A DNA stretch of 64,000 bases from Candidatus Thalassarchaeaceae archaeon (GCA_030747485.1 JASLKP010000002.1:18602-82601); one strand, 5' to 3'; positions 6,148 to 56,181 are shown, counted from the stretch's first letter. Translations and numbers: made by a program. The notes: generated by a model from the letters alone, not told the origin.

Positions 6148-6209
6148 GAGAAAAATCTCTCAATTGGTGTGTCGGCACGGCTTTGAACTGTCCTCGGATG
6201 GGATGGAAC

Positions 6210-11552: not shown

Positions 11553-12014
11553 CTACTGTTCTGCTGCCTTCATCGCGTCACGAGCCATTTGGGCCTTATT
11601 CCACATCGCTTTCTCTTCATCTGATTGTGGTGTAAATTGGGGGATTGGTATCGGTCGCATCTGAGAATCAATTGCGACCATAAAGAAGAATCCCGAACAA
11701 ATTTCTTCGGTAACCCATTCACTTCGACTCAATCTCTTTGAAACCACATGTACGCCTGCAGTGTGAGTGCTGGTATGAACAACTGTTGCAGTTGTCTCAA
11801 TGAGATCTCCCTGATACGCAGGTCTCTTAAATTTCAGCGCATCTACTGAAACGGTTACAAATTCACGATGAGCAAATTTACTCGCAGCCATCCCCGCTGA
11901 TGTATCCATGATGCTCATCAGTCGCCCTCCAAAAAGGGTATTGTAGGCGTTTGTGTGTTGTGGAAATACTTCATCCATCTTGGTTACTGGTTCGGTTGAA
12001 TACGGGTCTGACAT
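11553..12014 (-). CDS. Hotdog-fold acyl-CoA thioesterase (YciA/ACOT type)
   Basis: VFPQHTNAYNTLFGGRLMSIMD motif typical of acyl-CoA hydrolases; 153 aa. Confidence 0.8.
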   Translation of the reverse strand: MSDPYSTEPVTKMDEVFPQHTNAYNTLFGGRLMSIMDTSAGMAASKFAHREFVTVSVDALKFKRPAYQGDLIETTATVVHTSTHTAGVHVVSKRLSRSEWVTEEICSGFFFMVAIDSQMRPIPIPQFTPQSDEEKAMWNKAQMARDAMKAAEQ

Positions 12015-12894: not shown

Positions 12895-15800
12895 ATGACT
12901 AATCGAAAGCGAATTCTCTCTATGACGATGATCGGCTTGATGCTATTCTCAACAACACTGGTTCATGCTGCTACGGTCAGTACTTTTGCATCTGGTGGGG
13001 CAGAGGTAACTGTTGAGCTCCGTGATCAAGGAGTTTGGGCAGATGATTTGACAGCTGGTATTGAATTACCAGCGGGCGAAACTGTGAATTCTGCAGGATT
13101 GATTGTCGGCACAGATTCCGCCATTCACAACCACGTCGACACGATTGATGCATCGATTATGGACCATATTTGGAATCCAGCATACAACACAGGTCTTACT
13201 CAATATTCATCAAACAGTGACTTCACAGTTGATGAAGATTATATCAAGATGATTAGTTTAGGTTACAACGCTGATTTCGAAGCCAGTAGAGAGGGTTGGA
13301 CACCTGGTCTTGAACAAGGCCCTAACATGGTCAACTGGGGGCATGGTTCTAGTGAAGAAACACCACCAGAGTTGCAGAGTGGTTGCGGCGTAGGAGATTG
13401 GTGTTGGGGGACTGATTTCACAGGCTTTGACTACACACAGTCTCTTCCCAATGGTGAATACCAATTGGAGTTGACCAGTGAATCGTTTTATGTCAACCCA
13501 GGTAAGTCCGATTTGTCTTTCAAATCCTTCCACAATATGTTTTATCGTGAGGCTGGAACAAATCAGTATTACTACGATGATTGTGCATACGTCGCAGTCA
13601 TGAATTCAACAAATAATCAGGATTGGAACGACCCGATTTACATGCCATTTAACATTGGAAGTACAACAGGTGTGTCTCCTAACAATGGATTATATGCCCT
13701 TGGTGCGGCAACAAATCAGGTTCCAAATGCGAAATGTAATTTCCTAGGTACAAATGGACCACAAATTGGAGATTATGTACTCGGTGGAAATGGTACGACC
13801 AGTGGTAACACACCGGGTGGTTGGTCAGATATTGAAATCGACTTATCCGGACACAGTGGTCGATACGCAAAGATTGTTTTTATCATGGAAGTCAATGATC
13901 ACGGTTCTGCATTCCCAGTAGAACCTCCACATGCTGGTTGGTATATCGATGGCGTCCGTGTGGGTGATCCTCTCCCTGCTCAGGGACATGTAATCATGAG
14001 TTCATTCGCCCCTCAATCTAGTGGACAACCAGGATTCCCTGATGGGTATGGTGTCTTACAATTAGATTTGGTCAAAGCATCTTCAGCTGACTTTGGTGTC
14101 GACGTATTAGACGCAGGTACTGGCGCTGTTATTACAGATATTAATGGAAATGTCATGAGTGATTTACAAGGCTCTTTAATCGAGCTTTGGGACATCGATG
14201 GGGACACTCACCCTCTTATTGATTTGAAGTTCAACTTTGGTTCTGGTTCCAATCGTCTATCATCTCCTGTGTTACATGGTTTCCATATCGGTACTAGAAT
14301 TGGAACGACATTCAATAACACTGATGGCGTTTTCATCTTGAATGGAACAATCAATTCTGGTAAATGGGTGACCAGTATGGCTGAATCCTCTGCAGCATTG
14401 GTGACTGCAGCAATATTGGATGATTCATTCACTCCACCTGTGATGCGAACTTCATTTTCTAAACCAATTGTCGCCGTGAAGCCAATCATTGTAGATTCGT
14501 GTGGTGGTCCGACAAGTATCGGAATAATGAGTATGAATGAAGATGAAAATGCATTGATGGGTATGACTGATCAATGGACTTCATTTTCAGTACCTACATT
14601 CACCTTTGGAATGATGATTGAATATGCGACTCTCTGTGATGTATTTTCCATTCACGCAGATATTCAGTTTGCTCACAATTCACGTGGTATTAGTCTAGAT
14701 GTTGCTGCAGACGGTGACATTGAATGGGGTATGACTGATCCTGCATTCGGTCGTTTCGGATTACAGGATATGTTCAGGACTGGAATCGTCAATGGGATCA
14801 ATGAAGGTGATACAGAGCGTGAAATCGCACTTGATATCAATTTACATGGAGAGGGTGCACCATTCCTCCTTCCAAAGGGCGCTTCAATTACATATGCTGA
14901 GATTAGCCACTACCAAAATGGAATTGGTGGCTTCAACATGACTTTGGTCAGTGGAAACCAACAGGAAGACATTGGCGAAATCGAAGATTTGCCATTTGCG
15001 ATTCCATCACCTGGAAGTCCTTTGGTTTCAATGCAAGATCAGATTCAATCACTGCTCGATAATCCTCTGGTGCCCACTGCGTGGGTAGATGCATATGGAA
15101 ACGAATGGTATCTCTTCCGTATCATGGTGGATTCTAATGGTGCAACTCCTGGTTCAACCATCACGTTCCGTGATTTGCACATTACCTATGATTGGAGTCG
15201 TGCGATTAACGATGATAACAACGTTGCTAGGGAACTCAATCAGGGCGTAGCACTCGCAAGTAGCGGTTCAGCGGCCTCTTTGGTGGTGGTTCCGATGAGA
15301 ATCATCGGAGGTTCAGGAGGTGCAATCTCACTATCTTCTCTTTCTGTGTCTACTACGGGTGGTTATGACTCTACACTGAATTCTCAGGGCATCACTGGAA
15401 TGTATCCCAATGGTGACATTATTGAAATCATCACCACCCATGATGTTTCATCCGCGACAGGACAAACACTTGGTGGGGCCAGCCTTCTCTTTGAGACCAC
15501 AGAAGGGAATCTTGAACTTCTATGGGATGCAACCAATGATAGTTTCTGGGAAGAAACAGATCCTGATGATTACTTAGATTTCATGAGTATGCAATCGCTT
15601 TCCACCGACTTGTCTTCAGGCAAGGAACTTCGCTGGAGATTCCGAGTTAATCCATCATGGGATGATGTTGCAAGTGTCCGTCTGTATGCTGCTGCCCTGT
15701 CAAACACTGGTGTGAATGGCTTGCCTGCGGGTGTTTTGATTGAACCATCTACTGGAAATGCCGTGGAGAACGATGTCAGCATCACAGAATTCCATCTATT

Positions 15801-18747: not shown

Positions 18748-18764
18748 TCAAATTTGGTGATTCA

Positions 18765-19571
18765 ATGATTGATTCGGTGGCCCTTGAGTGGTCGCCAATC
18801 GATTGGGTTGACCCTGATGGAGGTATCATTCGCCTATGGCCTACTTTGCCAACAGTCGTCTATCCTGACTCACTGCGTAGAACCATCGGTCAATGGGATG
18901 GCATCGCCTTCTTGTTACCAACAGATGAACCGGATGTTTGGGATGAACAGGTAGTCGAAGAGAAGGCAAGTCCAGGTATCAATAGAGATGGAATTGCCGC
19001 TAGTGGAGGAATACTTGGGCGCATGATGGAAGGAATGTCTGCAATTGAGGGCATTCAAGTTGGCCGTTTTCCAGACCCTGAGCCTCGTCGTTTGTTAATC
19101 TCAGCACAGAGCGAAGCAGGTAGGGGGTCTAGACCCATTTTCTTCGTTGAGCCAGATGATGAAGAATGGACAGAATGGGTCGAATCCTGTGCAGATGAAA
19201 TGACGCGCCCTCTACGACTTTTAGGATTGGTATTCGGCGGACGTGCATGGAAAAAAGAATTGGTCAAAGCCATGAAGCATACAAGTCCTCCGAGGTTGGA
19301 AAAGAATGGAGATAAGGCAAGAGGTTTAGCTGAGGCAAGTAGCCTTGCAGCAGCTTGGTGGTGCCGTTCTGAAGCCAGTTTCACGGATGAATTGAGAAGT
19401 CAAAGAGATGCTCGCTTGTGCGCACGTTTACGTGGCTCTCTTTCTGTGCTTCGAGAGGGACAGGTTGATGTTGACATCCCTCCCGTGCTCCTCGTGCCGG
19501 TGATGCAGGCTTGGATGCCATCGATTCACAATGCGTTGCTAGATGAGCCGAAACCAGAGTCAATGGAATGA
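18765..19571 (+). CDS. Hypothetical protein
   Basis: ORF tightly packed after the giant gene, with ATG 18 nt after its stop. No recognised motifs. Confidence 0.5.
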   Translation: MIDSVALEWSPIDWVDPDGGIIRLWPTLPTVVYPDSLRRTIGQWDGIAFLLPTDEPDVWDEQVVEEKASPGINRDGIAASGGILGRMMEGMSAIEGIQVGRFPDPEPRRLLISAQSEAGRGSRPIFFVEPDDEEWTEWVESCADEMTRPLRLLGLVFGGRAWKKELVKAMKHTSPPRLEKNGDKARGLAEASSLAAAWWCRSEASFTDELRSQRDARLCARLRGSLSVLREGQVDVDIPPVLLVPVMQAWMPSIHNALLDEPKPESME

Positions 19572-20101
19572 AGGAGGACGATTTGATGAAGGGTGCAAGA
19601 ATTGAGAATCAATTATATCGATTCAAATCTCCTGTTCCGATTAATCAGCAACGTGTTGTTGATGAGATTGGTGGAAATAAAAGTGGGCGCTTCGTGATGA
19701 TTTCACTTCGTTCCCCTCGCTCAACCCTTCTCATCGATGACCAAGATCGAATTATCGTACATGGGTGTAAGAAACAGGAGATTGCTCATTTGGCTGCCAA
19801 AGAAGTTCTTCTGAGATTGGGCGAAGATGAGTCTGGAATGACATTTGAGTTAGGTCCTGCAGTGGCTTCATTCGATTTTGGTTGCAGTGTGAAATTGGAG
19901 GGGGTACCAGATCTATTTCCAGATGCCACCATTGATACTGAATTAGATTGTTTGAGAATCGATGACACACGACACGAAGTTAAACTTCTCCTCTTTAGAA
20001 ATGGTCGGGGAATCGCCACAGAGGCACGTCATGAAAAACTTGTAACAATGGCTGCCAAACGTTGGATGCAACGCCTATCTGATGAGAATCTTCTGAGTTG
20101 A
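19568..20101 (+). CDS. Divergent TATA-box-binding-protein-like (two-repeat) protein
   Basis: 177 aa, which is TBP size. Two internal repeats show a TBP-like pattern: RIEN..., SLRSPRSTLLIDDQDRIIVHGCKKQEIAHLAAKEVLLRL, and LRIDDTRHEVKLLLFRNGRGIATEARHEKLVTMAAKRWMQRL. The start overlaps the upstream stop (ATGA). Confidence 0.45.
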   Translation: MKEDDLMKGARIENQLYRFKSPVPINQQRVVDEIGGNKSGRFVMISLRSPRSTLLIDDQDRIIVHGCKKQEIAHLAAKEVLLRLGEDESGMTFELGPAVASFDFGCSVKLEGVPDLFPDATIDTELDCLRIDDTRHEVKLLLFRNGRGIATEARHEKLVTMAAKRWMQRLSDENLLS

Positions 20102-21006: not shown

Positions 21007-21074
21007 TTTTGAGGGTCAGCCTCAAAACCCGTCGGCTTTGGGCCGAAGCAGCCCATAGGGCTGGAAGTGGACTG

Positions 21075-21866
21075 ATGTTGAATCTGAAGGGTAAGACCGC
21101 GCTTGTCTTTGGAGTTGCATCTGAGGATTCGATTGCATGGTCAATTTGTCAACATCTCGCAGAGGCAGGGTGCAACCTCATCCTCGGTTATCAGAAGAGA
21201 TTCATGAGCCGTGTTTTCCAACTCAAGAATCAGTTATCTGCCATTCAATCATTCTATCCCATCGATGTAGCCGAAGAGGAAACCACTGCAGAATTCTTTC
21301 ACGAATGGCAGAAGGAGATGCCTGGGGCTAAGGCAGATATTATCATCCATGCAATTGGTTTTGCACCACGAGAATGTTTTGACCGACACATGCTTTTCGT
21401 TGAAGATGGACCAATCAACACTGCAATGACGATTTCTGCCCATTCTCTACAACGTGTGATGCGCCATGCAATGCCTCATCTGTCTCCGAATTCGTCGACA
21501 ATTACGCTAACCTATGCTGCTAGTACACGACATGTTCCAAATTATGGAATCATGAGCATTGCCAAAGCGGCATTAGAGGCTTGGGTACGGGAATTGGCCG
21601 TTCGAGTTGGAGAGGACGGACACCGAGTGAATGCGATTTCTTCCGGACCAATTCGTACCTTAGCGGCATCTGGCATCCCAGGATTTTCTGACATCTTGGA
21701 ACATGTTGAACGCAATTCTCCACTGCGACGAAATGTAAACCAAGATGATGTGGCTGGTTGCGCAGTATGGTTGGCAAGTCCACTTGGTGCTGGTGTAACT
21801 GGGCAAATCATCCACGTAGATTGTGGTTATTCTAGCACCATGGTGCCCGACAGTATCAATGATTGA
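21075..21866 (+). CDS. fabI: Enoyl-[acyl-carrier-protein] reductase (NADH), FabI type
   Basis: Near full-length collinearity with bacterial FabI: GKTALVFGVASEDSIAW, IHAIGFAP, YGIMSIAKAALEAWVRELA (Y-x6-K), VNAISSGPIRTLAASGI. The stop lies 9 nt before the megasynthase ATG. Confidence 0.9.
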   Translation: MLNLKGKTALVFGVASEDSIAWSICQHLAEAGCNLILGYQKRFMSRVFQLKNQLSAIQSFYPIDVAEEETTAEFFHEWQKEMPGAKADIIIHAIGFAPRECFDRHMLFVEDGPINTAMTISAHSLQRVMRHAMPHLSPNSSTITLTYAASTRHVPNYGIMSIAKAALEAWVRELAVRVGEDGHRVNAISSGPIRTLAASGIPGFSDILEHVERNSPLRRNVNQDDVAGCAVWLASPLGAGVTGQIIHVDCGYSSTMVPDSIND

Positions 21867-21875
21867 GGTTATGAT

Positions 21876-24800
21876 ATGCCATCACTTGATGAGAATCCTC
21901 AGGATCCATTTGAGCCAATCGCCGTTATTGGCGTATCAGCATTATTACCTGATGCTGACGACATCACTACATTTTGGCAGAATATATTGGATGCAAAAGT
22001 ATCGTTGAAATCAGTCCCTTCAAATCGTTGGATTGAATCAGATTTCTGGGTTGAGGGTGGCCCAAAAAATATCGATGAAAACAAAACCTACTCCAAAATT
22101 GGTGGTTGGATTGAAGGATTTGAATTTGATTGGCGCAGGTGGAGGGTGCCGCCAGGTAGTCTACTACAAATCGACCCGACGCAACTTTGGGCAGTAGAAG
22201 TCAGTGCAGCAGCTCTTGAAGATGCAGGATATTTGGGCGAGGGTTCTAAGGCGTTACCAAAAGAGCGAACTGGGACTATTTTTGCGAACGCTCTTGGAGG
22301 TGAAAATCGCAATCTTTCCAATCATCGTGTATGGGCAGATCAATTCGCTCGTTACGCGGTTGAGATGGGCGGAATGCCCGAATCAGGGATTTCTGCATTC
22401 AAAGACGCGATGCTCGAAGGTTTGCCAAAAGTCGATGAAGATACCATGCCGGGTGAATTGGCGAATGTTGTTGCAGGTCGAGTGGCAAACTTACTTGATT
22501 TACAGGGGCCCAATTATGCTACAGATGCTGCTTGTGCAACAACCTTCGCTGCCGTTCTTGATGCGTGTCGTTTACTACAAACCAGACAGGTAGACCTGAT
22601 GATTGCTGGTGCAAGTGATCGAACAATGGATCCTGCAACCTTTGCTAAATTCAGTGCAATCGGAGCACTTTCTGCCACACATTCAACACCTTTCGATGCG
22701 GGTGCTAATGGTTTTGTCATGGGTGAAGGTGCAGGTGCAGTCATCCTCAAGCGATTATCAGATGCAATCAGTGATGGTGACAGAATTCACGCTGTGATAC
22801 GTGGAGTTGGTGCGAGTAGTGATGGCCGAGGTAAGGGGATTACTGCACCCAGCACACGGGGTCAAGTACAGGCGGTCGAGCGTGCATATCAACAGGCCGG
22901 TTATCGCGCATCTACAGTTGGCCTTATCGAAGCACATGGAACTAGTACTGTAGTCGGTGATGCCACTGAACTAACATCATTATCAACAGTATTTGCAGAT
23001 CTTCCTGCTGGGGAATCAGTCGCAGTCGGTTCCATAAAGAGTCAAATTGGCCATCTCAAATCAGCTGCAGGCATTGCAGGTTTACTCAAGGCGATACATG
23101 CAGTTAGGGATGGAATCATTCCTCCAAGTGCAGGATTCCAAAATCCAAATGAAAACATCTCATGGGATGAGAACCCCTTCTTTGTCCCTACATCAACATC
23201 TCCGTGGCCTTCCCCTATTGGTCATCCACGTCGTGCAGGAATCTCGGCCTTTGGTTTCGGGGGCACGAATTTTCATTGTGCAATAGAGGCCTATGACTAC
23301 GAACACCATTCTTCAATTGCAGCGGATTTCGATACACGCCGTTCAGCATGGCTCAATCCTCATCATATGGTTCAACAGCCCCCAATCGCAGAAATTGCTG
23401 AGAGGATGAGTTGGGATGAATTGAAAGAAATTGAAGGCGGTGTTTTGTTACTAAATGCTCCGACCATCAAACACCTCAAGATTAAGGCAGAGCAAGTCAT
23501 TACTACCCTGTTTAGTGGTGAAAATTTTGATCAATCACCGACTGGTAAACGACTATCATTTGAACTTCCAAAGGCAAGTTCTGATTTCGTTGCAGAAGGT
23601 GTTCGAATGGCCATTGTTGCTAGTGACTGGTCACAACTAAAGAAGAGGTATGAATTGTTTGAATCATCAGTAGATGATACTAGCAAATGGGCTTTCCTTT
23701 CCAAGCAATTGATTATGATTTCAGATGATCCTATATTGGGTGATAATGCAAAGGTTGCCCATCTCTATCCTGGACAGGGTAGCCAATATGTAGGCATGAC
23801 ACTGGATTTAATGAAACGTTACAATTGCATTGGTCAAACATGGGATGAAGCAGATCAGACCATGGTTGAGGTACTAGATGGTGAAACACTTTCCTCCTTT
23901 GTTCTTCGAGACAATCTAACTGAAGATGAACTCAAAGAGGCTGAATACAAACTCAAGCAAACAGAGTATACACAGCCAGCAATGCTGACTGCAAATCTCT
24001 CATTGTATCGCTTGCTCAAAGCACACCATTTAGAACCAGACATGGTGGCTGGGCACTCGCTTGGTGAATACGCGGCTTTGATGGTATCAGGGATTCTCAA
24101 TTTCGATGATGCATTGCGTGCAGTCGCTGCTCGTGGAACTGAAATGGGAAGTGTTGATGTCCCAGATACTGGATTGATGGCATCAGTAACGGCCCCATTT
24201 GAACAAATTGAAGCGGTGCTTGCAGAGGAAGAGGGGTATGTCATTGCAGCCAACAAGAATAGTCCAAAGATGACCGTCATCGCCGGAGAAACTGAATCGA
24301 TGAAACGGGTAGTCAAGCGCTTTGAAGAAGCCGGAGCACCTTGTGCGATTCTACAAACCAGTCATGCCTTCCATTCGCGGATTGTTGCACCTGCAAATGA
24401 ACCACTCCGCCGATTCCTTGAAGGATTGGACCTCTCTCTTCCAACCATACCAATCACTTCGAATGTAGATGGAGGTTGGTATCCAAACATCGTCGCTACT
24501 GGTGACGACCCTAAGGGGGCAATCTTAGCCAAACTTGCCCCTCAGATGTCCTCTGCAGTAGAATGGACAAAACAAGTGGAGACGATGTATTCCGACGGGG
24601 CGAGAATGTTCGTTGAAGTTGGACCGAAGCGTGCACTTTCTCTGTTTGCTGAACAAATTCTTGAGGAGCGCACACACGTCGTTACCAATACAAATCATCC
24701 TAAGATTGGTGGAATTTCTTCATTTCATGCGGCTTTGGCAATTCATGCCCTCGCCGGTCGAATACCAAACATTCCCGATGAAAAAAGTCCACATCTGACG

Positions 24801-27800
24801 GCCGCCTTCAAAGCAGGCGTTGTTCAATCAACATCACCTCAAGTGATTGATGCAGTGCAACCCGCGGTCAATCTCGATGAGGATAGCATCGCTGAATGTT
24901 ATCGTCAAGCAAAGGAAGAATTTGTTGCCAAAATCGTATCAGAGATTGCAGGTTTCCCTCTTAGAATGATTCATGGTTCTGCAAATTTAATCACCATTGG
25001 AATCAATCCAGATCAATTATTGAATATTCACCGTACCATCCAAAATTCAATTCGGGTAAAAGGCACTACATCTGCGAAAACACTCCCTGAATTGGTTGAA
25101 TGGTTGGATGAAGTTCCCGGTGGAGAATCAGTTGCCATTGAACGGTTTGGAAAAACGAGAACGACCCATGTACCTCCCTCAACGAGTCAACAACACATCC
25201 CACCACCTGCAGTTATCTCCGATCCTTTGGCCAATCGTCGTTCCAATCCATATGTTGTCACCGGAGTTAGTTTGGGTCTCCCTGGCATGTCAGAAGTTTT
25301 CGCCCCGGATGCACTTGATCGAATCATCGCCGGTGAGAATTTCATCTCTGAATTATCAGATGAAATCAAACAGAGATTGTTGGATAAGAACTTGATTAGA
25401 ATTGTCAAGCATAAAGACGGTTCTGCTGATTTTGTTCCTTGTGATTCGTTTGAACTCATTCCACAACTCGCTGGTAGGGCTGGTTATTTCGATTTGGCAG
25501 AACAGTATGGAGTGGACTCAAAAATTGCAGATGCGATGGATATCTCCACGAGCCTTGCCGTTGCGGCTGGACTAGAGGCCTTGAAGGATGCAGGATTGCC
25601 ACTGATTGCAGTAGAACAGACGAATAAAGCAGGTAAAAGAATCATACAGAAATGGAATCTTCCAGAATCGGAAAGAGACCGAACAGGTGTTGTCTTTGCC
25701 TCTTGTTTTCCTGGCATAGACATGGCAATCAAACATGCACAGAATAACGGTGCGGATGTAGATGGAAATTTTGATCGCCAATATCTTCTCCAAATTCTGA
25801 CCATGGGTCACTCACAGTTTGCCCAATGGATTGGGGCCAGGGGTCCAAATACTGCTGTAAACAATGCTTGCGCATCAACACCTGCAGCCATCGCTGTGGC
25901 TGAGGATTGGATGGCTACTGGCCGCTGTGACCGTGTCATTATTGTTAGTGCAGATAACGTAACCAGTGACAATCTGATGGAATGGATTGGCGCTGGTTTT
26001 GCCGCAGCTGGAGCCCATGCAATTGGCAATGTTGTCGAAGAGGTTGCTTTACCGTTCGATGTGCGACGAAATGGAATGCTGTTAGGAATGGGTGCTTGTG
26101 CGCTTGTTCTTGAGCGTTCAAAGGATGCTACAGAACGTGGTGTCATTCCATATGTCGAATTGTTAGGTGCACATATCGGGAATTCAGCCTATCACCCCAC
26201 TCGATTGGATGTCGACCATGTTTCAACATCACTTGATCAATTCATGTCAAAGATGGAGGAAGATTGGAACATCAATCGTCACACTATTGCTGCAAACTTA
26301 TCGTTCATGTCTCATGAGCCAGCAACACCGCCAAGAGGTGGCTCGGCTGCCGCTGAAATCCAAGCCTTGCGCCATACATTTGGTGAAAGCGCATCTAAGA
26401 TAATCATCACGAATACGAAGGGATTCACAGGTCACCCTATGGGGACTGGAATTGAGGATGTGGTTGCCATTCGTGGCTTAGCCCAAGGTGAATTCCCTCC
26501 GATTGCAAACTTCCAGCAACCAGATCCTGAACTTGGAGATTTACACTTGTCAGTTGGTGGTCCAGTGGATGTACAATACGTCTTACGACATGCTGCGGGT
26601 TTTGGTTCTCAAATGGCATTGACATTCCTCAAGAGAATTGCCTCTGATTTGAATCGAACAGATCAATCACGTCTTGCTTCATGGACATCAAATGTGGTAT
26701 CTGGTTCAGTTGATCTCAGAATTCTGAAACGAAAATTGGTTGCCTATGTTGACCCTGATGAACATCTAATCGGGGGAGTACAAGGAGAGCCCTTTGCAAT
26801 CGCGGAAATGAAGATTGAAGTTGTTGATCAAACACCGGTTGAGATTGAAACTCAACCCCTCATTGAACCCAGTGCCTCACCACCACCTTCTGGAGATGTA
26901 GCTGACAAAGTCGTCGAAGTAGTCGTCAAGCATACTGGTTACCCCGCAGATTTCATTGAACTTGATCAGGACTTAGAGGGGGAATTGGGCATTGATACTG
27001 TCAAGCAGGCAGAAATCATGGCAGAACTACGAGAGTTCTACGGGTTACCAGTGGACGAATCCTTCGTTCTTTCAGAACATCCAACTCTCAATCACATGAT
27101 TGCCTATCTGGATCAAGGTAGTGACTCTCCACCTGTTGATCCCGTTGAAGAATCAATGCCCCCTCTTCCTGATCCAACGGCGATAACACCACCAGTTGAA
27201 TCAGAAAAAACCGGTGTAAGACGTTGGCAAGTGGAGGTCGAAGAAGCCCCGCCTGAAGCCTCAACTCCCCTGGACATAGAGGGTAAAGTCATCGCAGTAA
27301 CCGATGACCCTTGGGGAATTGCAGATACCCTTTGTCATATTCTTGAAGCTGCAGGAATCGATACTGTTAGAATCATGCTTGACCCCAGTATCGTATCGAA
27401 GATTAAGATTGAGAAAGATGGAATGGTTGACATAATTCGCGTAGATCCAGAAAATCATCAACAATTGGAGGAGGTCAGCAAACATCTTGCCGATGTTGGT
27501 GAAGTCGTAGCATTACTGCACCTAGCTCCCTTACGACTTGCTGGTGTTGGATGGGATGAAGAAACACAGGCAGCACATCTTGCATCATCTACACATGGAC
27601 TGTTTGGCTTGCTTAAATCACTAGATGGCCACTTCTCCTCCTTATCTGATGGGACTGTCATGTCTGTGAGCGCAATGGATGGTCGCCATGGAAATGTCAG
27701 TGATCGTTTCAACGCGTTAGCAGCGGGATCTCATGGGATCGTCAAATCATATGCAAAGGAACATCCACATCTTCGCTGTCGGGCTGTTGATATCGACCCT

Positions 27801-29840
27801 GAGATGCTGATGGAGCCAACAAAATTAGCGCACCAAATCTGGGCTGAAGCCTTCGGAAGAATCGCCCCACTGGAGGTGGGGCTTACTCGTGATGATGGTC
27901 GCTGGGCCATGTGTTTGTACGAAGAAAATCTCATTGATCAAAGACATCCATTGAATGATGACGATGTATGGATTGTATCTGGTGGTGGTGGTGGTGTAAC
28001 TGCTCAATGTATTGTAGGTATTGCTGAGGCAAGTCCGAATGCGGGTGCAACTTTCGTATTGCTAGGCCGTACCAGATTGGACCCTTCTATTGAAGAATGG
28101 ATGAATAATGATGATGAAACATTAGAAAAACACAAGTTGGAATTGCGTGAATCCATGATCTCAGCCAGTGAATCTGGGAAAGTGACAATGGTTGAGTGGG
28201 ATCAAGAATGGAGTAAGAAGATGCGAAGTTTAGACATTCATCGTACGATGAGGGACATTCAAGTTTCAGGTAACCGAGCAATGTATGATGCGTGTGATGT
28301 AACCAATTCGAAATCTGTAGGTAAGGTCGTTAATGCAGTTCGAAAGGAATGTGGTCCGATTACAGGTTTGATTCATGGAGCTGGAATGGAGGATTCCAAG
28401 TTAGTTGCAGACAAGACTTGGGATATGTTCTCCAAGGTGATTTCAGTGAAAATCGATGGATGGCGTGCCCTCATTAGCGCTTTAGATGAAGATCTTGAGC
28501 ATCTCAGAATATTGTGTGCATTTACTTCGGTTGCAGGCCGATTCGGAAATGCAGGACAGGTTGATTATGCTGCGGCGAATAATATTCTAGATGCTGAAAT
28601 GTGCCGCATTGCTCACCATGCAGATGCTCCTAGAGCAGTCTCAATTGCTTGGTCTGGATGGAAGGACATCGGAATGGCAACGAAGGGTTCCATTGAATCT
28701 GTATTCGCTCAAGCAGGAATTGAGATGATTCCAGTTGATGTGGGTGTTGAGATTTTCATCAACGAAATATTGTCGGGAGGCAAACGCCGAGTCGTTGCTG
28801 CCGGCGCTCTCGGGCAGTTGGATTCCTCAGCCAGCAAGAGATCACCTCCGCAGAAATTGCCACCTGATACTTCAGGTTTGTTGGCTGAACCGAATCGCTT
28901 CCCCTTCGTTGATCGAGTCATCGAGCATGAACCATATGAGTACATCATTACTGAATGCACTCTTGACCCCCATCGATATCCATTCCTAATTGATCATGCA
29001 ATCGAAGGAACACCCTATCATCCTGGTGTCATGGCCATGGAGATGTTTGCAGAGGATGCACTGTTACTGTACCCGATGTGTACGTTGTCAGGATTTAATG
29101 ATGTGAAATTTGGTTTACCAATTAAATTAATCAAAGACGAAGTCAAGCTTCGTGTTGTTGCTAAATTTGCATCTCAAAATGAATCTGAAATTAGTATTCA
29201 ATGCCATCTTGAAAGCGATTTAATTAATTCGCAAGGAGAAATTTTCGGTGAACCACGAGTACACCATACAGCGACAGTCCGCCTTTTGAAAGATGGAGGT
29301 TTGCGTACTCCTATTATTCCATTCACAGCGCCAACTGGTCGTGCCAAAGCATCCTTCCAACCGGGTTTCGTATACGAGCGATTCTTCCATGGACCCAGAT
29401 TCCAAGTTCATGGTGGCTTGGTCAAAGGCATTCGTGATGGGGATGATGTTGGTGCAGATGGAATTGCTCTGTTGAGGAGCCAATTGCCCAATTCTGATTT
29501 ATTCCAAAAAGATGCTGATGGCGAGAATGTCTTGCTGGAATCGCTACCAATGTTAATTGAAGCATGTTTCCAAAATGCTGGTTTAGTTGCGATGGAAATC
29601 GATGAGATCTCAAGTCTTCCAATTGGTATTGAATCAGTTGAAGTCCTCAAATTACCAGCAGAGAGAGATGACCTAAGGATTCGAAGTTTCCGTCGAGAAT
29701 TGGAACTTGATGGTGTCACAGTACATGATGCGGTTGTATACGACCGGAATCAGAAACCTATTGTGGTATTGTCGGGTCTACGTTTGAAAGGGATGTCACC
29801 TATTCCTGATGAATTAAAATTCACACTTAAGAGGAAATAA
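21876..29840 (+). CDS. Type I FAS/PKS-like megasynthase: KS - AT - carrier-like - KS - ACP-like - KR - DH
   Basis: KS1 (~aa 12-470): DAAC220ATT, EAH354GT, IGH393LK. AT (~aa 625-935): GQGSQ, GHS728LG, HAFHS. Carrier-like fold (~aa 1000-1080): GINPDQ. KS2 (~aa 1124-1585): NNAC1332AS, SH1480E, GH1520P. ACP-like (~aa 1672-1746): ELGIDT1708VKQAE. KR (~aa 1795-2300): SGGGGGVTA, DY2231AAAN. DH (~aa 2338-2654): H2374AIEGTPYHP, i.e. HxxxGxxxxP. GAGG sits 8 nt upstream of the ATG. Confidence 0.9.
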   Translation: MPSLDENPQDPFEPIAVIGVSALLPDADDITTFWQNILDAKVSLKSVPSNRWIESDFWVEGGPKNIDENKTYSKIGGWIEGFEFDWRRWRVPPGSLLQIDPTQLWAVEVSAAALEDAGYLGEGSKALPKERTGTIFANALGGENRNLSNHRVWADQFARYAVEMGGMPESGISAFKDAMLEGLPKVDEDTMPGELANVVAGRVANLLDLQGPNYATDAACATTFAAVLDACRLLQTRQVDLMIAGASDRTMDPATFAKFSAIGALSATHSTPFDAGANGFVMGEGAGAVILKRLSDAISDGDRIHAVIRGVGASSDGRGKGITAPSTRGQVQAVERAYQQAGYRASTVGLIEAHGTSTVVGDATELTSLSTVFADLPAGESVAVGSIKSQIGHLKSAAGIAGLLKAIHAVRDGIIPPSAGFQNPNENISWDENPFFVPTSTSPWPSPIGHPRRAGISAFGFGGTNFHCAIEAYDYEHHSSIAADFDTRRSAWLNPHHMVQQPPIAEIAERMSWDELKEIEGGVLLLNAPTIKHLKIKAEQVITTLFSGENFDQSPTGKRLSFELPKASSDFVAEGVRMAIVASDWSQLKKRYELFESSVDDTSKWAFLSKQLIMISDDPILGDNAKVAHLYPGQGSQYVGMTLDLMKRYNCIGQTWDEADQTMVEVLDGETLSSFVLRDNLTEDELKEAEYKLKQTEYTQPAMLTANLSLYRLLKAHHLEPDMVAGHSLGEYAALMVSGILNFDDALRAVAARGTEMGSVDVPDTGLMASVTAPFEQIEAVLAEEEGYVIAANKNSPKMTVIAGETESMKRVVKRFEEAGAPCAILQTSHAFHSRIVAPANEPLRRFLEGLDLSLPTIPITSNVDGGWYPNIVATGDDPKGAILAKLAPQMSSAVEWTKQVETMYSDGARMFVEVGPKRALSLFAEQILEERTHVVTNTNHPKIGGISSFHAALAIHALAGRIPNIPDEKSPHLTAAFKAGVVQSTSPQVIDAVQPAVNLDEDSIAECYRQAKEEFVAKIVSEIAGFPLRMIHGSANLITIGINPDQLLNIHRTIQNSIRVKGTTSAKTLPELVEWLDEVPGGESVAIERFGKTRTTHVPPSTSQQHIPPPAVISDPLANRRSNPYVVTGVSLGLPGMSEVFAPDALDRIIAGENFISELSDEIKQRLLDKNLIRIVKHKDGSADFVPCDSFELIPQLAGRAGYFDLAEQYGVDSKIADAMDISTSLAVAAGLEALKDAGLPLIAVEQTNKAGKRIIQKWNLPESERDRTGVVFASCFPGIDMAIKHAQNNGADVDGNFDRQYLLQILTMGHSQFAQWIGARGPNTAVNNACASTPAAIAVAEDWMATGRCDRVIIVSADNVTSDNLMEWIGAGFAAAGAHAIGNVVEEVALPFDVRRNGMLLGMGACALVLERSKDATERGVIPYVELLGAHIGNSAYHPTRLDVDHVSTSLDQFMSKMEEDWNINRHTIAANLSFMSHEPATPPRGGSAAAEIQALRHTFGESASKIIITNTKGFTGHPMGTGIEDVVAIRGLAQGEFPPIANFQQPDPELGDLHLSVGGPVDVQYVLRHAAGFGSQMALTFLKRIASDLNRTDQSRLASWTSNVVSGSVDLRILKRKLVAYVDPDEHLIGGVQGEPFAIAEMKIEVVDQTPVEIETQPLIEPSASPPPSGDVADKVVEVVVKHTGYPADFIELDQDLEGELGIDTVKQAEIMAELREFYGLPVDESFVLSEHPTLNHMIAYLDQGSDSPPVDPVEESMPPLPDPTAITPPVESEKTGVRRWQVEVEEAPPEASTPLDIEGKVIAVTDDPWGIADTLCHILEAAGIDTVRIMLDPSIVSKIKIEKDGMVDIIRVDPENHQQLEEVSKHLADVGEVVALLHLAPLRLAGVGWDEETQAAHLASSTHGLFGLLKSLDGHFSSLSDGTVMSVSAMDGRHGNVSDRFNALAAGSHGIVKSYAKEHPHLRCRAVDIDPEMLMEPTKLAHQIWAEAFGRIAPLEVGLTRDDGRWAMCLYEENLIDQRHPLNDDDVWIVSGGGGGVTAQCIVGIAEASPNAGATFVLLGRTRLDPSIEEWMNNDDETLEKHKLELRESMISASESGKVTMVEWDQEWSKKMRSLDIHRTMRDIQVSGNRAMYDACDVTNSKSVGKVVNAVRKECGPITGLIHGAGMEDSKLVADKTWDMFSKVISVKIDGWRALISALDEDLEHLRILCAFTSVAGRFGNAGQVDYAAANNILDAEMCRIAHHADAPRAVSIAWSGWKDIGMATKGSIESVFAQAGIEMIPVDVGVEIFINEILSGGKRRVVAAGALGQLDSSASKRSPPQKLPPDTSGLLAEPNRFPFVDRVIEHEPYEYIITECTLDPHRYPFLIDHAIEGTPYHPGVMAMEMFAEDALLLYPMCTLSGFNDVKFGLPIKLIKDEVKLRVVAKFASQNESEISIQCHLESDLINSQGEIFGEPRVHHTATVRLLKDGGLRTPIIPFTAPTGRAKASFQPGFVYERFFHGPRFQVHGGLVKGIRDGDDVGADGIALLRSQLPNSDLFQKDADGENVLLESLPMLIEACFQNAGLVAMEIDEISSLPIGIESVEVLKLPAERDDLRIRSFRRELELDGVTVHDAVVYDRNQKPIVVLSGLRLKGMSPIPDELKFTLKRK

Positions 29841-29879
29841 AATGCAATTGAAGAATCGATTTTACAATTGGAGAATAAC

Positions 29880-30620
29880 ATGACGAATTATTGGAATCCA
29901 GCGGGACCAGTGTCCAGATTGTATCTCCCCTCAAATTGTGACCAAGTCGATGTTCAAGCCGTTTGGATACCTGTACATGACACCTCACCTGTGGATGAAA
30001 TTCCCGATATTTCTCAAGTACCACTTGTCAATCAATCTGAGGCATCAACATTTGTCATACCCAAGAGGGCACATGAGCATGCAGCAGGTCGCTATGCACT
30101 TGCAAGATTATTGCAAGGAATTGGTTTAGATCCTAATGAATTACAAATTATTCGTGACGAAAATCGCAAACCGAGTCTGATTTGGAATGATATTGATGTA
30201 GATTTACCACTCCCTGAAATCACCATCGGTCATTCGGGAGGTATTGCAATTGCAGCGATTTCAGTCGATGGCACACAAATCGGTTTGGATGTAGAACCAT
30301 TGGAACATCCTAGACAACGCAATCTCCTCTCGATGATGGCCAGTGGGGTGGAATTCCAGTATCTCAACGACGTTTGGGACCTTGACGCTGAAATTGGTAT
30401 GAAGGAAACCACTCGTACTTGGGTCATGAAAGAAGCAGTTCAGAAAGCCTGTGGCTATGGAATGCAAATTACACCACTGTCATTCAATGTACTCAACAAA
30501 GATGAGGTTGAATTGTCTCATGACGGACAGGGCTTCCGCTTGACGACACATCATTGGTTAGAAGATCTGATGGGGCAATCATTTGCCTTTGGTTTCTCAC
30601 GAATGTTAAGCATCGTCTAA
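29880..30620 (+). CDS. Sfp-type 4'-phosphopantetheinyl transferase
   Basis: Motifs NRKPSL, ITIGHSGGIAIAAIS, IGLDVEPL and WVMKEAVQKACG (W/F-x-x-KE-A-x-x-K). GGAG lies 8 nt upstream of ATG 29880; the track ORF starts at TTG 29868. Confidence 0.8.
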   Translation: MTNYWNPAGPVSRLYLPSNCDQVDVQAVWIPVHDTSPVDEIPDISQVPLVNQSEASTFVIPKRAHEHAAGRYALARLLQGIGLDPNELQIIRDENRKPSLIWNDIDVDLPLPEITIGHSGGIAIAAISVDGTQIGLDVEPLEHPRQRNLLSMMASGVEFQYLNDVWDLDAEIGMKETTRTWVMKEAVQKACGYGMQITPLSFNVLNKDEVELSHDGQGFRLTTHHWLEDLMGQSFAFGFSRMLSIV

Positions 30621-32252: not shown

Positions 32253-32324
32253 GCGGATGTAGTGAAGGGGTTATCACCTGAGGTTTCCAACCTCATGTCA
32301 CGGGTTCAAATCCCGTCGTCCGCA
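32253..32324 (+). tRNA. tRNA-Gly (anticodon UCC)
   Basis: Manual cloverleaf: acceptor GCGGATG/CGTCCGC (one G-U pair), D arm GTGA-AGGGGTTA-TCAC, anticodon arm TGAGG-TT[TCC]AA-CCTCA, 4-nt variable loop, T arm ACGGG-TTCAAAT-CCCGT, discriminator A. No encoded CCA and no intron. Confidence 0.85.
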
Positions 32325-32376
32325 CTTCTGAATTTGATACTGGCGTATTGAAAAACCATCGCCGAGAGGCCACCAT

Positions 32377-56088: not shown

Positions 56089-56113
56089 TTTCTTCACACT
56101 CCAGTCGCCAATC

Positions 56114-56130
56114 CGGTCCCTAAGGGACCG
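56114..56130. other. Hairpin (7-bp stem, loop TAA) downstream of the methyltransferase gene
   Basis: CGGTCCC-TAA-GGGACCG. Confidence 0.6.
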
Positions 56131-56181
56131 CTTCGAACAGTCCCGCCGACCGGCGACCCCCATTTGAAGCCGCCGACGCAC

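What the first reader, a model, noticed from the sequence alone, without database searches (positions are those of the whole stretch)
21009..30620. Complete reducing type I FAS/PKS cassette (fabI, a KS-AT-KS-ACP-KR-DH megasynthase, an Sfp PPTase) in an archaeal gene neighbourhood
Three co-directional genes are separated by 9 and 39 nt, and SD-like GAGG/GGAG sits before the second and third. Gene 1 is a bacterial-type FabI (Y-x6-K, GPIRTLAASGI). Gene 2 is a 2654-aa ORF carrying KS (C220/H354/H393), a malonyl-type AT (GHS728LG, HAFH), a second KS (C1332/H1480/H1520), carrier-like folds, KR (GGGGGVTA, Y2231AAAN) and a PKS-type DH (H2374xxxGxxxxP). Gene 3 is an Sfp-type PPTase (GLDVE, WxxKEA). Together they supply every activity of a full elongation/reduction cycle: KS, AT, KR, DH and a trans ER. 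No thioesterase or other release domain is present. The flanking genes are unambiguously archaeal (Orc1/Cdc6, PCNA, TFS, Nop5, fibrillarin, Csl4). Archaea build isoprenoid ether lipids and generally lack ACP-dependent FAS/PKS machinery. The domain order also differs from the layouts I know for PfaA (KS-AT-ACPn-KR-DH), PfaC (KS-CLF-DH-DH) and enediyne PKSE (KS-AT-ACP-KR-DH-PPT). This may be an undescribed archaeal route to fatty-acyl or polyketide lipids.
Basis: partly seen in the sequence, partly recalled or inferred. Interest (0 to 1): 0.9.

Follow-up and report, generated by a model that had tools for sequence, protein, structure and literature searches.

The report
Archaeal fatty-acid megasynthase with threonine carrier
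A three-gene bacterial-type fatty-acid/polyketide synthase cassette is a native, order-wide feature of the abundant marine archaea Poseidoniales; it belongs to a known but uncharacterised bacterial family ("Type R" pfa-like synthases) whose carrier domains unexpectedly carry threonine where every textbook carrier protein has the cofactor-bearing serine.

Summary
Three co-directional genes encode FabI (21075-21866), a 2654-aa megasynthase (21876-29840) and a divergent Sfp-type PPTase (29880-30620). The domain order is KS-AT-ψACP-KS'-ACP-KR-DH, and all catalytic residues are intact. It is not a misassembly. Composition matches the flanks. The block TatD-FabI-megasynthase-PPTase is syntenic in about 45 Poseidoniales (Marine Group II) loci from both families.

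The layout is not undescribed. It matches the "Type R" pfa-like secondary-lipid synthase of Shulse & Allen 2011 (KS-MAT-"CLF"-ACPn-KR plus PPTase), whose product is unknown. More than 150 clusters at 50 % identity exist in bacteria and Heimdallarchaeota. Three things differ here: the archaeal host, a FabI in place of the fused PfaD-type or ACAD-like reductase, and a single ACP.

The "CLF" is really an active FabF-like KS (Cys/His/His in 271/271).

Unexpectedly, the carrier motif is LGIDTVKQAE, with Thr at the phosphopantetheine-Ser position. It is Thr in 128/150 family representatives, Thr is ancestral, all four Thr codons are used, and it reverted to Ser at least twice in Poseidoniales.

Most likely function: an iterative, fully reducing type I fatty-acyl synthase. 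This fits published proposals of bacterial-type lipids in MGII. The product and Thr modification are untested.

The parts
21075..21866 (+). FabI-type enoyl-ACP reductase (trans-acting ER), 263 aa from ATG 21075. The ORF is open from TTG 21009.
   Evidence: Pfam adh_short_C2 1.4e-66. Best NCBIfam models are all FabI, but below the equivalog cut-offs. All top PDB hits are FabI (1ulu E 2e-54, full length). Y-x6-K at Y179/K186 of the long ORF. 72-88 % identical and adjacent to the megasynthase in all Poseidoniales loci. Start supported by ortholog N-termini.
21876..29840 (+). 2654-aa iterative type I megasynthase: KS-AT-ψACP-KS'-ACP(Thr)-ψKR/KR-DH.
   Evidence: The best NCBIfam model is PfaA TIGR02813, at 780.7 bits against a cut-off of 1010.1. 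More than 120 full-length orthologs at 54-74 % identity, all from Poseidoniales where named.
21912..23312 (+). KS1 (PfaA-like ketosynthase), C220/H354/H393.
   Evidence: Pfam ketoacyl-synt, Ketoacyl-synt_C and KAsynt_C_assoc, residues 13-479. Residues verified.
23763..24665 (+). Malonyl-type acyltransferase (GHS728LG, HAFH at 830).
   Evidence: Pfam Acyl_transf_1 1.9e-37. TIGR00128 FabD 3.4e-60. Motifs verified.
24912..25112 (+). Degenerate ACP-like domain (ψACP) with the attachment motif decayed to IGINP.
   Evidence: hhalign of the ortholog profile against the family ACP profile gives probability 96.5 %, E 7e-10. No Pfam hit and no BLASTP hit. Relatives have an intact ACP at this position.
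25221..26645 (+). KS' - second, FabF-like ketosynthase and the family-defining domain (C1332/H1480/K1515/H1520). It is the 'CLF' of Shulse & Allen.
   Evidence: Pfam ketoacyl-synt 1.5e-15 and ACP_syn_III. Best PDB hits are FabF, at 2e-26. Active site conserved across the family: Cys and first His in 271/271, Lys and second His in 270/271.
26904..27110 (+). ACP (PP-binding) domain. The attachment-site codon ACT at 26997-26999 encodes Thr1708 in the motif LGIDTVKQAE.
   Evidence: Pfam PP-binding 37.2 bits against a cut-off of 20.8. Thr aligns with the Ppant-Ser of solved ACPs. Codon checked. Family-wide conservation.
27243..28775 (+). Ketoreductase: structural subdomain (about residues 1790-2015) plus catalytic subdomain (GGGGGVTA at 2036, S2218, Y2231).
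   Evidence: Pfam KR 4.1e-26. PDB hits are PKS KR domains, e.g. PksJ 9.5e-21. The structural subdomain is inferred from its position and from conservation in orthologs; it has no Pfam hit.
28920..29837 (+). PKS-type double-hotdog dehydratase (H2374xxxGxxxxP).
   Evidence: Pfam PKS_DH_N 9.5e-6 and PS-DH 5.8e-5 when scanned alone. Both are just below their gathering scores. Motif verified.
29880..30620 (+). Divergent Sfp/AASDHPPT-type 4'-phosphopantetheinyl transferase (ATG 29880; ORF open from TTG 29868).
   Evidence: Pfam ACPS 32.2 bits against a cut-off of 25, plus 4PPT_N. PDB AASDHPPT 7e-4, with both halves aligned. G-x-D141-x-E143, W185xxK188E189 and K193 are conserved in 86 family PPTases. 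The PPTase lies immediately downstream in all loci and is fused to the synthase in many bacterial members.

Best explanation
The window comes from a Marine Group II archaeon (Poseidoniales, family Thalassarchaeaceae/MGIIb).

The three genes form a vertically inherited, order-wide cassette. It was acquired anciently from bacteria. It belongs to the 'Type R' pfa-like iterative type I FAS/PKS family.

Proposed mechanism (inferred):
1. The dedicated PPTase converts the single ACP domain to its holo form, attaching phosphopantetheine to Thr1708.
2. The AT loads malonyl units from malonyl-CoA.
3. The two active condensing domains, PfaA-like KS1 and FabF-like KS', share priming and elongation, probably at different chain lengths.
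4. KR, DH and the trans-acting FabI reduce every beta-keto group completely. The product is therefore a saturated, or nearly saturated, fatty-acyl-ACP.
5. No thioesterase is present. The chain is probably handed directly to an acyltransferase, or released by a separate hotdog thioesterase.
6. It then enters ester-linked glycerol-3-phosphate lipids or lipoprotein anchors.

Shown here: gene content, domain integrity, family membership, vertical inheritance, purifying selection, and the Thr at the carrier site.

Inferred: the product, the role of each KS, the release route, and that Thr is actually phosphopantetheinylated.

The confidence of 0.65 is for the whole statement. Identity, family and native origin alone would be about 0.9. 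A fully reduced fatty-acyl product would be about 0.6.
For: Domains and catalytic residues are intact.

Native origin:
- GC content, tetranucleotide signature (r = 0.96) and GC3 equal the flanks.
- Synteny of big1950-u280-TBP-like-TatD-FabI-megasynthase-PPTase holds in about 45 loci of both Poseidoniales families.
- It also holds in Ser-type loci.
- Locus GC ranges from 35 to 50 %.

Family membership:
- 878 representatives at E <= 1e-30.
- The top 150 share (ER)-KS-AT-KS'-ACPn-KR-DH-(PPT).
- This matches the Type R description.
- Named relatives come from Acidobacteria, Chloroflexi, Elusimicrobia, Actinomycetota, Myxococcota and Heimdallarchaeota.

Full reduction:
- Every family variant carries some enoyl reductase.
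- Lujinxingia has a fused NMO/PfaD-type ER.
- Kibdelosporangium has an ACAD-like domain.
- Poseidoniales have FabI 9 nt upstream.

Link to fatty-acid supply:
- Carboxyltransferase or ACC genes sit next to the synthase in Lujinxingia, Kibdelosporangium and Koribacter.
- A biotin carboxylase lies in the window.

KS' is catalytic, with Cys and the first His in 271/271 sequences and Lys and the second His in 270/271.

Thr is functional, not decay:
- 216 Thr against 46 Ser in Poseidoniales, never mixed within a protein.
- 128/150 family representatives are all-Thr.
- All four Thr codons are used.
- Thr is ancestral, with at least two switches to Ser.
- A PPTase is always co-encoded or fused.

The literature already proposes bacterial-type fatty-acid and ester lipid genes, G3P dehydrogenase and no G1P dehydrogenase in MGII. 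An Lgt homolog lies in the window.
Against: - No product is known for any Type R synthase. No lipid, transcript or protein data for these genes were found.
- MGII field lipid studies link the group to ordinary GDGTs and found no specific biomarker.
- Pfa-like synthases usually make specialised long-chain 'secondary' lipids rather than bulk fatty acids.
- Phosphopantetheinylation of Thr has no precedent that I could find. From memory, E. coli ACP S36T is not modified by AcpS.
- The DH Pfam scores are just below gathering. Its second catalytic acid appears to be Glu rather than Asp (sequence reading only).
- I could not test whether the genome lacks FAS II or has PlsX/Y/C.
Confidence: 0.65

Rival explanations
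1. The cassette makes a specialised 'secondary lipid', for example a very-long-chain acyl, hydroxy-acyl, hydrocarbon or wax precursor. The archaeon would use this for a particular envelope or storage function, not for bulk membrane fatty acids.
For: All characterised pfa-like relatives (PUFA synthase, heterocyst glycolipid synthase, Ars phenolic-lipid synthase) make specialised lipids of C20 or longer. Two distinct KS domains suggest control over unusual chain lengths. Field data associate MGII with normal GDGT membranes. An MFS transporter gene abuts the cassette in MGIIb.
Against: The cassette is universal, syntenic and strongly conserved across the order (54-74 % identity over 2650 aa), which is more typical of core metabolism. 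No tailoring genes are conserved next to it; downstream genes vary. The literature reports that MGII lacks G1P dehydrogenase and has G3P dehydrogenase, which creates a need for a bacterial-type lipid pathway.
Confidence: 0.25
2. The Thr carrier is not phosphopantetheinylated. The ACP is an apo scaffold, or it carries a different modification. The synthase would then work on CoA or other thioesters, or the cassette has a non-biosynthetic role.
For: No literature precedent for Ppant-Thr was found. Canonical AcpS does not modify S36T ACP (from memory). No PPTase position co-varies with Ser or Thr type.
Against: A PPTase with an intact Mg2+ site and catalytic Glu is always adjacent or fused. Thr and Ser interchange at exactly this position among orthologs with identical synteny. 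Tandem ACPs are amplified to 2-6 copies, as in PUFA synthases where copy number raises throughput. Thr is under purifying selection.
Confidence: 0.12
3. The cassette is a bacterial fragment misjoined or mis-binned into an archaeal contig, or a recent strain-specific horizontal transfer.
For: Its closest non-archaeal relatives are bacterial. Two of the fetched contigs are deposited under bacterial MAG names (L028 Salipiger, L032 Rhodobiaceae).
Against: Composition is identical to the flanks. The same junctions on both sides recur in about 45 independent assemblies, including single-cell genomes and contigs up to 704 kb. The two 'bacterial' contigs themselves carry the Poseidoniales synteny, so they are the mis-binned ones. 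Tetranucleotide correlation with the Lujinxingia gene is -0.15.
Confidence: 0.01
4. It is a PUFA synthase (PfaA) or an enediyne/other polyketide natural-product synthase that produces a bioactive secondary metabolite.
For: The best NCBIfam model is PfaA. One NCBI annotation calls an ortholog 'Pks15/1'. The domain set resembles PKSE (KS-AT-ACP-KR-DH-PPT).
Against: The PfaA score is below the cut-off, 780.7 against 1010.1. There are no PfaB, PfaC or PfaD partners, no FabA-type DH/isomerase and no CLF lacking Cys anywhere in the 64-kb window. A full-time enoyl reductase is present. Order-wide vertical inheritance is unlike natural-product clusters.
Confidence: 0.04

Closest known systems
'Type R' pfa-like secondary lipid synthase (Shulse & Allen 2011, PLoS One 6:e20146; PMC3098273), found in Koribacter, Solibacter, Elusimicrobium and Roseiflexus
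   Same: One pfaA homolog with KS-MAT-second KS ('CLF')-ACPn-KR(-DH), followed by a PPTase gene. It is associated with acetyl-CoA carboxylase genes. The product is unknown. The same bacterial phyla were recovered by my KS' profile search.
   Different: - The host is archaeal.
- There is a single ACP plus a decayed ψACP, instead of 3-6 ACPs.
- A separate FabI gene sits upstream.
- The PPTase P1b' motif reads I-T-I-G-H rather than hShxH.
- The paper does not mention archaea or an ER partner in what I read. I found no mention of the Thr carrier motif either.
- The 'CLF' label is contradicted by the fully conserved Cys-His-His.
Bacterial single-polypeptide relatives, e.g. Lujinxingia vulgaris TMQ2 (L067; 4123 aa)
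   Same: The same domain families, including KS', Thr-type ACPs (LGVDTVKQAEIM, three copies), KR, DH and the PPTase. 44 % identity in the best segment.
   Different: The ER is a fused PfaD/NMO-type domain and the PPTase is fused. The ACPs lie before KS' rather than after it. A carboxyltransferase gene follows.
PUFA synthase PfaA (TIGR02813), with PfaB, PfaC, PfaD and PfaE
   Same: KS-MAT-ACPn-KR-DH backbone, tandem ACPs in orthologs, a trans-acting ER and a dedicated PPTase.
   Different: - An extra active KS' is inserted.
- There is no PfaC (KS-CLF-FabA-type DH x2) and no PfaB.
- The ER is FabI, not PfaD.
- The carrier motif is LGIDTVKQAE, against LGIDSIKRVEIL for PfaA ACPs (the latter quoted from memory).
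- The score is below the family cut-off.
Type II FAS components FabF and FabI
   Same: KS' is most similar to FabF structures (2e-26). Gene 1 is a genuine FabI-family enzyme (2e-54 to T. thermophilus FabI).
   Different: KS' is embedded in a megasynthase and has the signature SHE(T/P)xTPxRGGS instead of HGTGTxxGD. No free ACP, FabH, FabG or FabZ is present in the window.
Enediyne PKSE (KS-AT-ACP-KR-DH-PPTase)
   Same: An iterative type I synthase with a self-contained PPTase function and a single ACP.
   Different: PKSE has no second KS and no ER, and it makes a polyene. No enediyne accessory genes are present here. No phylogeny was run.

Membership tests
Type R pfa-like secondary lipid synthase (Shulse & Allen 2011) | pfaA homolog with the domain order KS-MAT-'CLF' (second KS)-ACP-KR | tested here: met
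   Pfam and segment scans give KS 13-479, AT 630-930, second KS about 1116-1590, PP-binding 1677-1745 and KR. The same order is found in most of the 150 family representatives.
Type R pfa-like secondary lipid synthase (Shulse & Allen 2011) | 3-6 tandem ACP domains | tested here: not met
   The window protein has one ACP plus one degenerate ψACP. Poseidoniales orthologs have 1-4. The authors state that single-ACP clusters were not excluded if the other criteria held.
Type R pfa-like secondary lipid synthase (Shulse & Allen 2011) | Downstream gene encoding a PPTase with the P1b' motif hShxH | tested here: inconclusive
   A PPTase lies immediately downstream. The motif reads I-T-I-G-H in the window. 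It has Ser in 85 % of Thr-type family PPTases and in 6/6 Ser-type ones.
Type R pfa-like secondary lipid synthase (Shulse & Allen 2011) | The proximal KS clusters phylogenetically with Type R reference sequences | not tested
   The reference strains' sequences were not retrievable. Indirect support: the KS' profile search returns Acidobacteria, Chloroflexi and Elusimicrobia proteins at more than 690 bits.
PUFA synthase PfaA (TIGR02813) | Score at or above the curated cut-off | tested here: not met
   780.7 bits against a cut-off of 1010.1, in 3 stretches.
PUFA synthase PfaA (TIGR02813) | Partner genes pfaB, pfaC (KS-CLF-FabA-type DH) and pfaD (NMO-type ER) | tested here: not met
   None were found among the ORFs of the 64-kb window scanned with Pfam.
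FabI enoyl-ACP reductase | SDR fold with the Tyr-x6-Lys catalytic dyad and full-length similarity to characterised FabI | tested here: met
   adh_short_C2 1.4e-66. YGIMSIAK motif. All top PDB hits are FabI, with the best at 2e-54 over residues 2-253.
FabI enoyl-ACP reductase | NCBIfam equivalog cut-off | tested here: not met
   The best model, NF005615, scores 229.7 bits against a cut-off of 391. It is a divergent member.
Sfp-type (group II) PPTase | Two-half pseudo-dimer with ACPS domain, Mg2+ ligands (GxDxE) and catalytic WxxKE | tested here: met
   ACPS 32.2 bits against a cut-off of 25. 4PPT_N scores 20 bits, below its cut-off of 27. AASDHPPT aligns over residues 54-203. D141, E143, W185, K188, E189 and K193 are conserved at 97 % or more in 86 sequences.
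Canonical acyl carrier protein (PF00550) | PP-binding fold at or above the gathering score | tested here: met
   37.2 bits against 20.8. It aligns to solved ACPs.
Canonical acyl carrier protein (PF00550) | Conserved Ser in the (D/H)S(L/I) motif as the phosphopantetheine attachment site | tested here: not met
   Thr1708 (codon ACT, 26997-26999) occupies the Ser column. Thr is found in 216/262 Poseidoniales ACP motifs and in 128/150 family representatives.
Chain-length factor (CLF / KSbeta) | Loss of the active-site Cys (usually replaced by Gln) | tested here: not met
   KS' keeps Cys in 271/271, the first His in 271/271, Lys in 270/271 and the second His in 270/271.

The most novel reading that the evidence does not exclude
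The carrier domains of this megasynthase family are phosphopantetheinylated on threonine. That would be a previously unrecognised variant of a linkage thought to be universally on serine. It would be installed by the family's own divergent PPTase.

In Poseidoniales, which have no other known ACP system, this synthase would be the cell's primary fatty-acid synthase. It would feed ester-linked glycerol-3-phosphate lipids. The most abundant surface-ocean archaea would then naturally build mixed archaeal/bacterial-type membranes.
Probability: 0.3. Interest if true: 0.9.

Novelty: new variant of a known kind. Interest (0 to 1): 0.66.

Why it matters
Relevance to the 'lipid divide':
- Marine Group II archaea are among the most abundant microbes in the surface ocean and remain uncultured.
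- Published genomics reports that they lack G1P dehydrogenase, have G3P dehydrogenase, and carry 'bacterial-like' lipid genes.
- This analysis pins the acyl-chain source to a concrete three-gene unit. It is order-wide and vertically inherited, and it can be cloned and tested.
- A 'mixed membrane' hypothesis becomes a defined biochemical experiment.

Relevance to enzymology:
- Thr replaces the phosphopantetheine-bearing Ser in a family of hundreds of megasynthase clusters. Members include cultured Lujinxingia and Kibdelosporangium.
- This challenges a textbook invariant of FAS, PKS and NRPS enzymology.
- It predicts either a new post-translational linkage or a new way of using carrier domains.
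- It also matters for genome mining. Tools that require the DSL serine will call these carriers inactive.

Tried and rejected
1. Chimeric assembly or contamination. Rejected on composition and synteny.
2. A larger operon including the upstream co-directional ORFs. ThiI, the 1950-aa unknown, the 280-aa unknown, the TBP-like protein and TatD show no FAS/PKS domains. They are syntenic but not functionally linked by any evidence.
3. The extra 1.2-kb gene between TatD and FabI in MGIIa as a missing release enzyme. It is a signal-peptide, TM-anchored acidic protein.
4. Conserved downstream genes as release or tailoring enzymes. They vary between loci.
5. PUFA synthase or PfaA membership. The score is below the cut-off and no partners are present.
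6. KS' as a chain-length factor. Its active site is invariant.
7. PPTase co-variation with Ser- or Thr-type carriers. No discriminating column was found among 6 Ser-type and 80 Thr-type sequences. This neither supports nor refutes Thr modification.
8. BLASTP of residues 991-1090 against the ACP found nothing. Only profile-profile comparison detected the ψACP.
9. Literature. No paper describes this synthase in archaea or a Thr carrier site. Villanueva et al. 2017 itself is not held, so I cannot exclude that it mentions the gene.
10. The 'short' stand-alone KS' proteins returned by the profile search. They turned out to be fragments of frameshifted long-read assemblies of the same megasynthase.
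11. The Rfam and tRNA scans found only tRNA-Gly at 32253-32325.
Full report
**1. What is in the sequence**

Pfam assigns gene 1 to the enoyl-ACP-reductase SDR family (adh_short_C2, 1.4e-66).

Gene 2 carries these domains:
- ketoacyl-synt N/C plus KAsynt_C_assoc (residues 13-479);
- Acyl_transf_1 (630-930);
- PP-binding (1677-1745);
- KR (2120-2264);
- PKS_DH_N (2349-2441).

Gene 3 matches ACPS at 32.2 bits, above the cut-off of 25, together with 4PPT_N.

Scanned on its own, residues 1106-1615 hit ketoacyl-synt (1.5e-15) and ACP_syn_III. The C-terminal 389 residues hit PKS_DH_N and PS-DH just below their gathering scores.

The spacers are 9 nt and, from ATG 29880, 39 nt. GAGG and GGAG precede genes 2 and 3.

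I make two corrections:
- Ortholog N-termini and gene calls show that FabI starts at ATG 21075, giving 263 aa.
- There is only one genuine carrier domain.

The second 'carrier-like fold' (residues 1013-1079) is a decayed ACP. Neither Pfam nor BLASTP detects it. Profile-profile comparison recovers it at probability 96.5 %, E 7e-10, with IGINP aligned to LGIDT.

The refined architecture is KS-AT-ψACP-KS'-ACP-ψKR/KR-DH.

**2. It is native to an archaeal genome**

GC content is flat across the cassette.

The cassette's tetranucleotide signature correlates at 0.96 with the rest of the window. Every other 9.5-kb segment falls in the same range, 0.959-0.976. GC3 equals that of neighbouring genes.

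The neighbours are archaeal: Orc1/Cdc6, PCNA, TFS, Nop5 and fibrillarin.

A database search returned more than 120 full-length homologs at 54-74 % identity. Every named one comes from Marine Group II, Poseidoniales, Thalassarchaeaceae or Poseidoniaceae MAGs.

A scan of one genome per species gave 74 loci. Of these, 72 are from Poseidoniales-type contigs and two are bacterial (*Lujinxingia* L067 and a weak Hyphomicrobiaceae match, L074).

About 45 loci are long enough to judge. In these, the order 1950-aa ORF, 280-aa ORF, TBP-like, TatD, FabI, megasynthase, PPTase is conserved in both families. MGIIa has one unrelated secreted-protein gene inserted.

Two contigs deposited as bacterial MAGs (L028, L032) carry this same archaeal synteny. 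They are the mis-binned ones.

The misassembly scenario is therefore refuted. The cassette was present in the common ancestor of the order.

**3. What family it belongs to**

An exhaustive HMMER search with KS'+ACP (residues 1101-1760) found 878 representatives (50 %-identity clusters) at E <= 1e-30. The best 150 are almost all proteins of 2-4 thousand residues.

I mapped the window's domains onto them. The common plan is (N-terminal PfaD/NMO-type ER)-KS-AT-KS'-ACP(1-6)-KR-DH-(C-terminal PPTase). Variants place ACPs before KS'.

The cultured bacterium *Lujinxingia vulgaris* encodes all of it in one 4123-aa protein, next to a carboxyltransferase gene.

*Kibdelosporangium lantanae* has an N-terminal acyl-CoA-dehydrogenase-like domain. 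Its synthase is followed by a complete acetyl-CoA carboxylase and a PPTase.

A KS' profile search returned named members from:
- Acidobacteria, Chloroflexi, Elusimicrobia, Actinomycetota, Myxococcota, Gemmatimonadota and Gammaproteobacteria;
- Heimdallarchaeota and one Halobacteriales MAG.

This is the 'Type R' cluster of Shulse & Allen 2011. They describe one pfaA homolog, KS-MAT-CLF-ACP(3-6)-KR, followed by a PPTase gene. It occurs in Koribacter, Solibacter, Elusimicrobium and Roseiflexus, sometimes with an ACC gene. Its product is unknown. That paper contains no mention of archaea.

The conclusion that the layout is undescribed is not.

**4. What differs from the described family**

(a) The host is archaeal, and the genes are split three ways.

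(b) The enoyl reductase is a FabI. All its closest structural relatives are FabI, with 1ulu at 2e-54 over the full length, and it has the Y-x6-K dyad. Other members use a fused NMO-type or ACAD-like domain instead. This looks like a non-orthologous replacement of one step.

(c) The window protein has a single ACP. Orthologs have 1-4.

(d) The domain called 'CLF' is not a chain-length factor. It is most similar to FabF (2e-26). It keeps Cys and the first His in 271/271 sequences, and Lys and the second His in 270/271. It has its own signature, SHE(T/P)xTPxRGGS.

The family therefore has two active condensing enzymes.

**5. The unexpected feature: a threonine carrier**

The PP-binding domain reads ELGIDTVKQAEIM. 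In alignments to solved ACPs, the Thr falls exactly on the phosphopantetheinylated Ser. The codon is ACT at 26997-26999.

This is not a local defect:
- Among 120 Poseidoniales homologs, 216 carrier motifs have Thr and 46 have Ser.
- The two are never mixed within one protein. 96 proteins are all-Thr with 1-4 copies, and 23 are Ser-Ser.
- Among the 150 family representatives, 128 are all-Thr with up to 6 copies, 4 are all-Ser and 1 is mixed.
- *Lujinxingia* and *Kibdelosporangium* are Thr-type.
- All four Thr codons are used (ACG 91, ACA 35, ACC 29, ACT 17). Selection therefore acts on the amino acid. The Ser sites use TCN, one substitution away.

On a KS-AT tree, parsimony gives Thr as ancestral. 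There are at least two independent switches to Ser inside MGIIb. The Heimdallarchaeota member is separately Ser-type.

Ser-type loci have identical synteny, so they are orthologs.

The accompanying PPTase keeps its Mg2+ ligands and catalytic Glu in both types. No alignment column distinguishes Ser-type from Thr-type.

The simplest reading is that this position is the functional attachment site and that the family's PPTase accepts Thr. This is an inference. I found no precedent in two literature searches. From memory, E. coli ACP S36T is not a substrate of AcpS.

**6. Most likely mechanism**

All activities for a full elongation and reduction cycle are present and intact. No FabA-type isomerising dehydratase exists in the window.

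I therefore favour an iterative, fully reducing type I synthase that makes saturated or near-saturated acyl-ACP from malonyl-CoA.

The two KS domains probably divide the work, either between priming and elongation or between chain-length ranges.

No release domain is present. The candidate routes are:
- direct acyl transfer to glycerol-3-phosphate;
- release by the highly conserved 4HBT thioesterase 9 kb upstream (90-93 % identical in MGIIb).

Several observations favour a core-lipid role:
- the order-wide conservation of the cassette;
- acetyl-CoA carboxylase genes next to the synthase in bacterial relatives;
- a biotin carboxylase in the window;
- an Lgt homolog in the window;

Two observations keep a specialised 'secondary lipid' as a serious rival:
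- the behaviour of all characterised pfa-like synthases;
- the association of MGII with ordinary GDGTs in field data.

**7. Novelty and limits**

The gene is present in public MAG annotations under generic names. The family was catalogued in 2011. The idea of bacterial-type lipid genes in MGII has been published.

As far as my searches reach, the following are new:
- recognising that the MGII genes are a Type R synthase, inherited vertically by the whole order;
- the FabI substitution;
- the active second KS;
- the Thr carrier as a family hallmark.

I could not read Villanueva et al. 2017. I could not examine whole genomes for FAS II or Pls genes. I could not build a reference phylogeny. No expression or lipid data were available. 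The product, and the modification of Thr, remain untested.

Noticed in passing
window 26997-26999 (Thr1708 codon); the same site in L001-L080 and P0001-P0270: The carrier-domain attachment residue is Thr, not Ser (motif LG[IV]DTVKQAE). It is Thr in 128/150 family representatives and in 216/262 Poseidoniales ACP motifs, and all four Thr codons are used. Thr is ancestral, with at least two reversions to Ser that always affect every tandem ACP of a protein.
   Followed up: yes
window 40945-41691 (+): A homolog of bacterial prolipoprotein diacylglyceryl transferase Lgt (PF01790, 4.7e-22, 79 bits) in an archaeal genome. In bacteria this enzyme takes diacylglycerol from phosphatidylglycerol, so it hints indirectly at ester-linked diacyl lipids in this organism.
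   Followed up: no
window 12895-18747 (+), with 18729-19571 and 19568-20101: A 1950-aa ORF with no Pfam hit, followed by a 280-aa unknown and a 177-aa protein with a single TBP-like repeat. All three are syntenic upstream of the cassette in essentially every Poseidoniales locus, at 28-64 % identity.
   Followed up: partly
window 11553-12014 (-): A 4HBT hotdog thioesterase that is 90-93 % identical among MGIIb loci, much more conserved than its neighbours. It keeps its position near the cassette even where the 1950-aa gene is missing (L076). It is a candidate chain-release enzyme.
   Followed up: partly
window 4804-7547 (+): A FAD/NAD-binding oxidoreductase (CPR or sulfite-reductase flavoprotein-like) immediately followed by a biotin carboxylase. 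This is a possible acyl-CoA carboxylase component for malonyl-CoA supply. No carboxyltransferase was seen in the window.
   Followed up: no
window 45381-48731 (-) and 48792-50582 (-): An IcmF-like fusion (B12-binding, MeaB GTPase and methylmalonyl-CoA-mutase domains; 1116 aa) next to an AMP-binding acyl-CoA-synthetase-like gene. Both relate to acyl-CoA metabolism.
   Followed up: no
window 54730-56181 (-) and 43983-44624 (+): Proteins with domains that are typically eukaryotic: an RRM_1 RNA-recognition motif with zinc ribbons (483 aa), and a SAP-domain protein (213 aa).
   Followed up: no
L028 (CAXQWT010000010.1, 'Salipiger bermudensis' MAG) and L032 (CALDQY010000187.1, 'Rhodobiaceae' MAG): Contigs deposited under bacterial MAG names carry the full Poseidoniales synteny (TBP-like, TatD, FabI, megasynthase). 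They are almost certainly mis-binned archaeal contigs.
   Followed up: partly
L067 7622-19993; L080 5928-21678; P0147: Family variants. Lujinxingia vulgaris has ER(NMO)-KS-AT-ACP3-KS'-KR-DH-PPT in one 4123-aa protein, followed by a carboxyltransferase. Kibdelosporangium lantanae has an N-terminal acyl-CoA-dehydrogenase-like domain and a full ACC downstream. A Heimdallarchaeota member (MCY3414055.1, 3234 aa) is Ser-type with five ACPs and a fused PPTase.
   Followed up: partly
L001, L015, L017, L026, L057; L078-L080: The megasynthase ORF is broken in several public assemblies, probably by frameshifts. This is especially so in long-read 'pilon' contigs and the Kibdelosporangium draft. The result is many spurious 'stand-alone KS' protein entries in databases.
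   Followed up: partly
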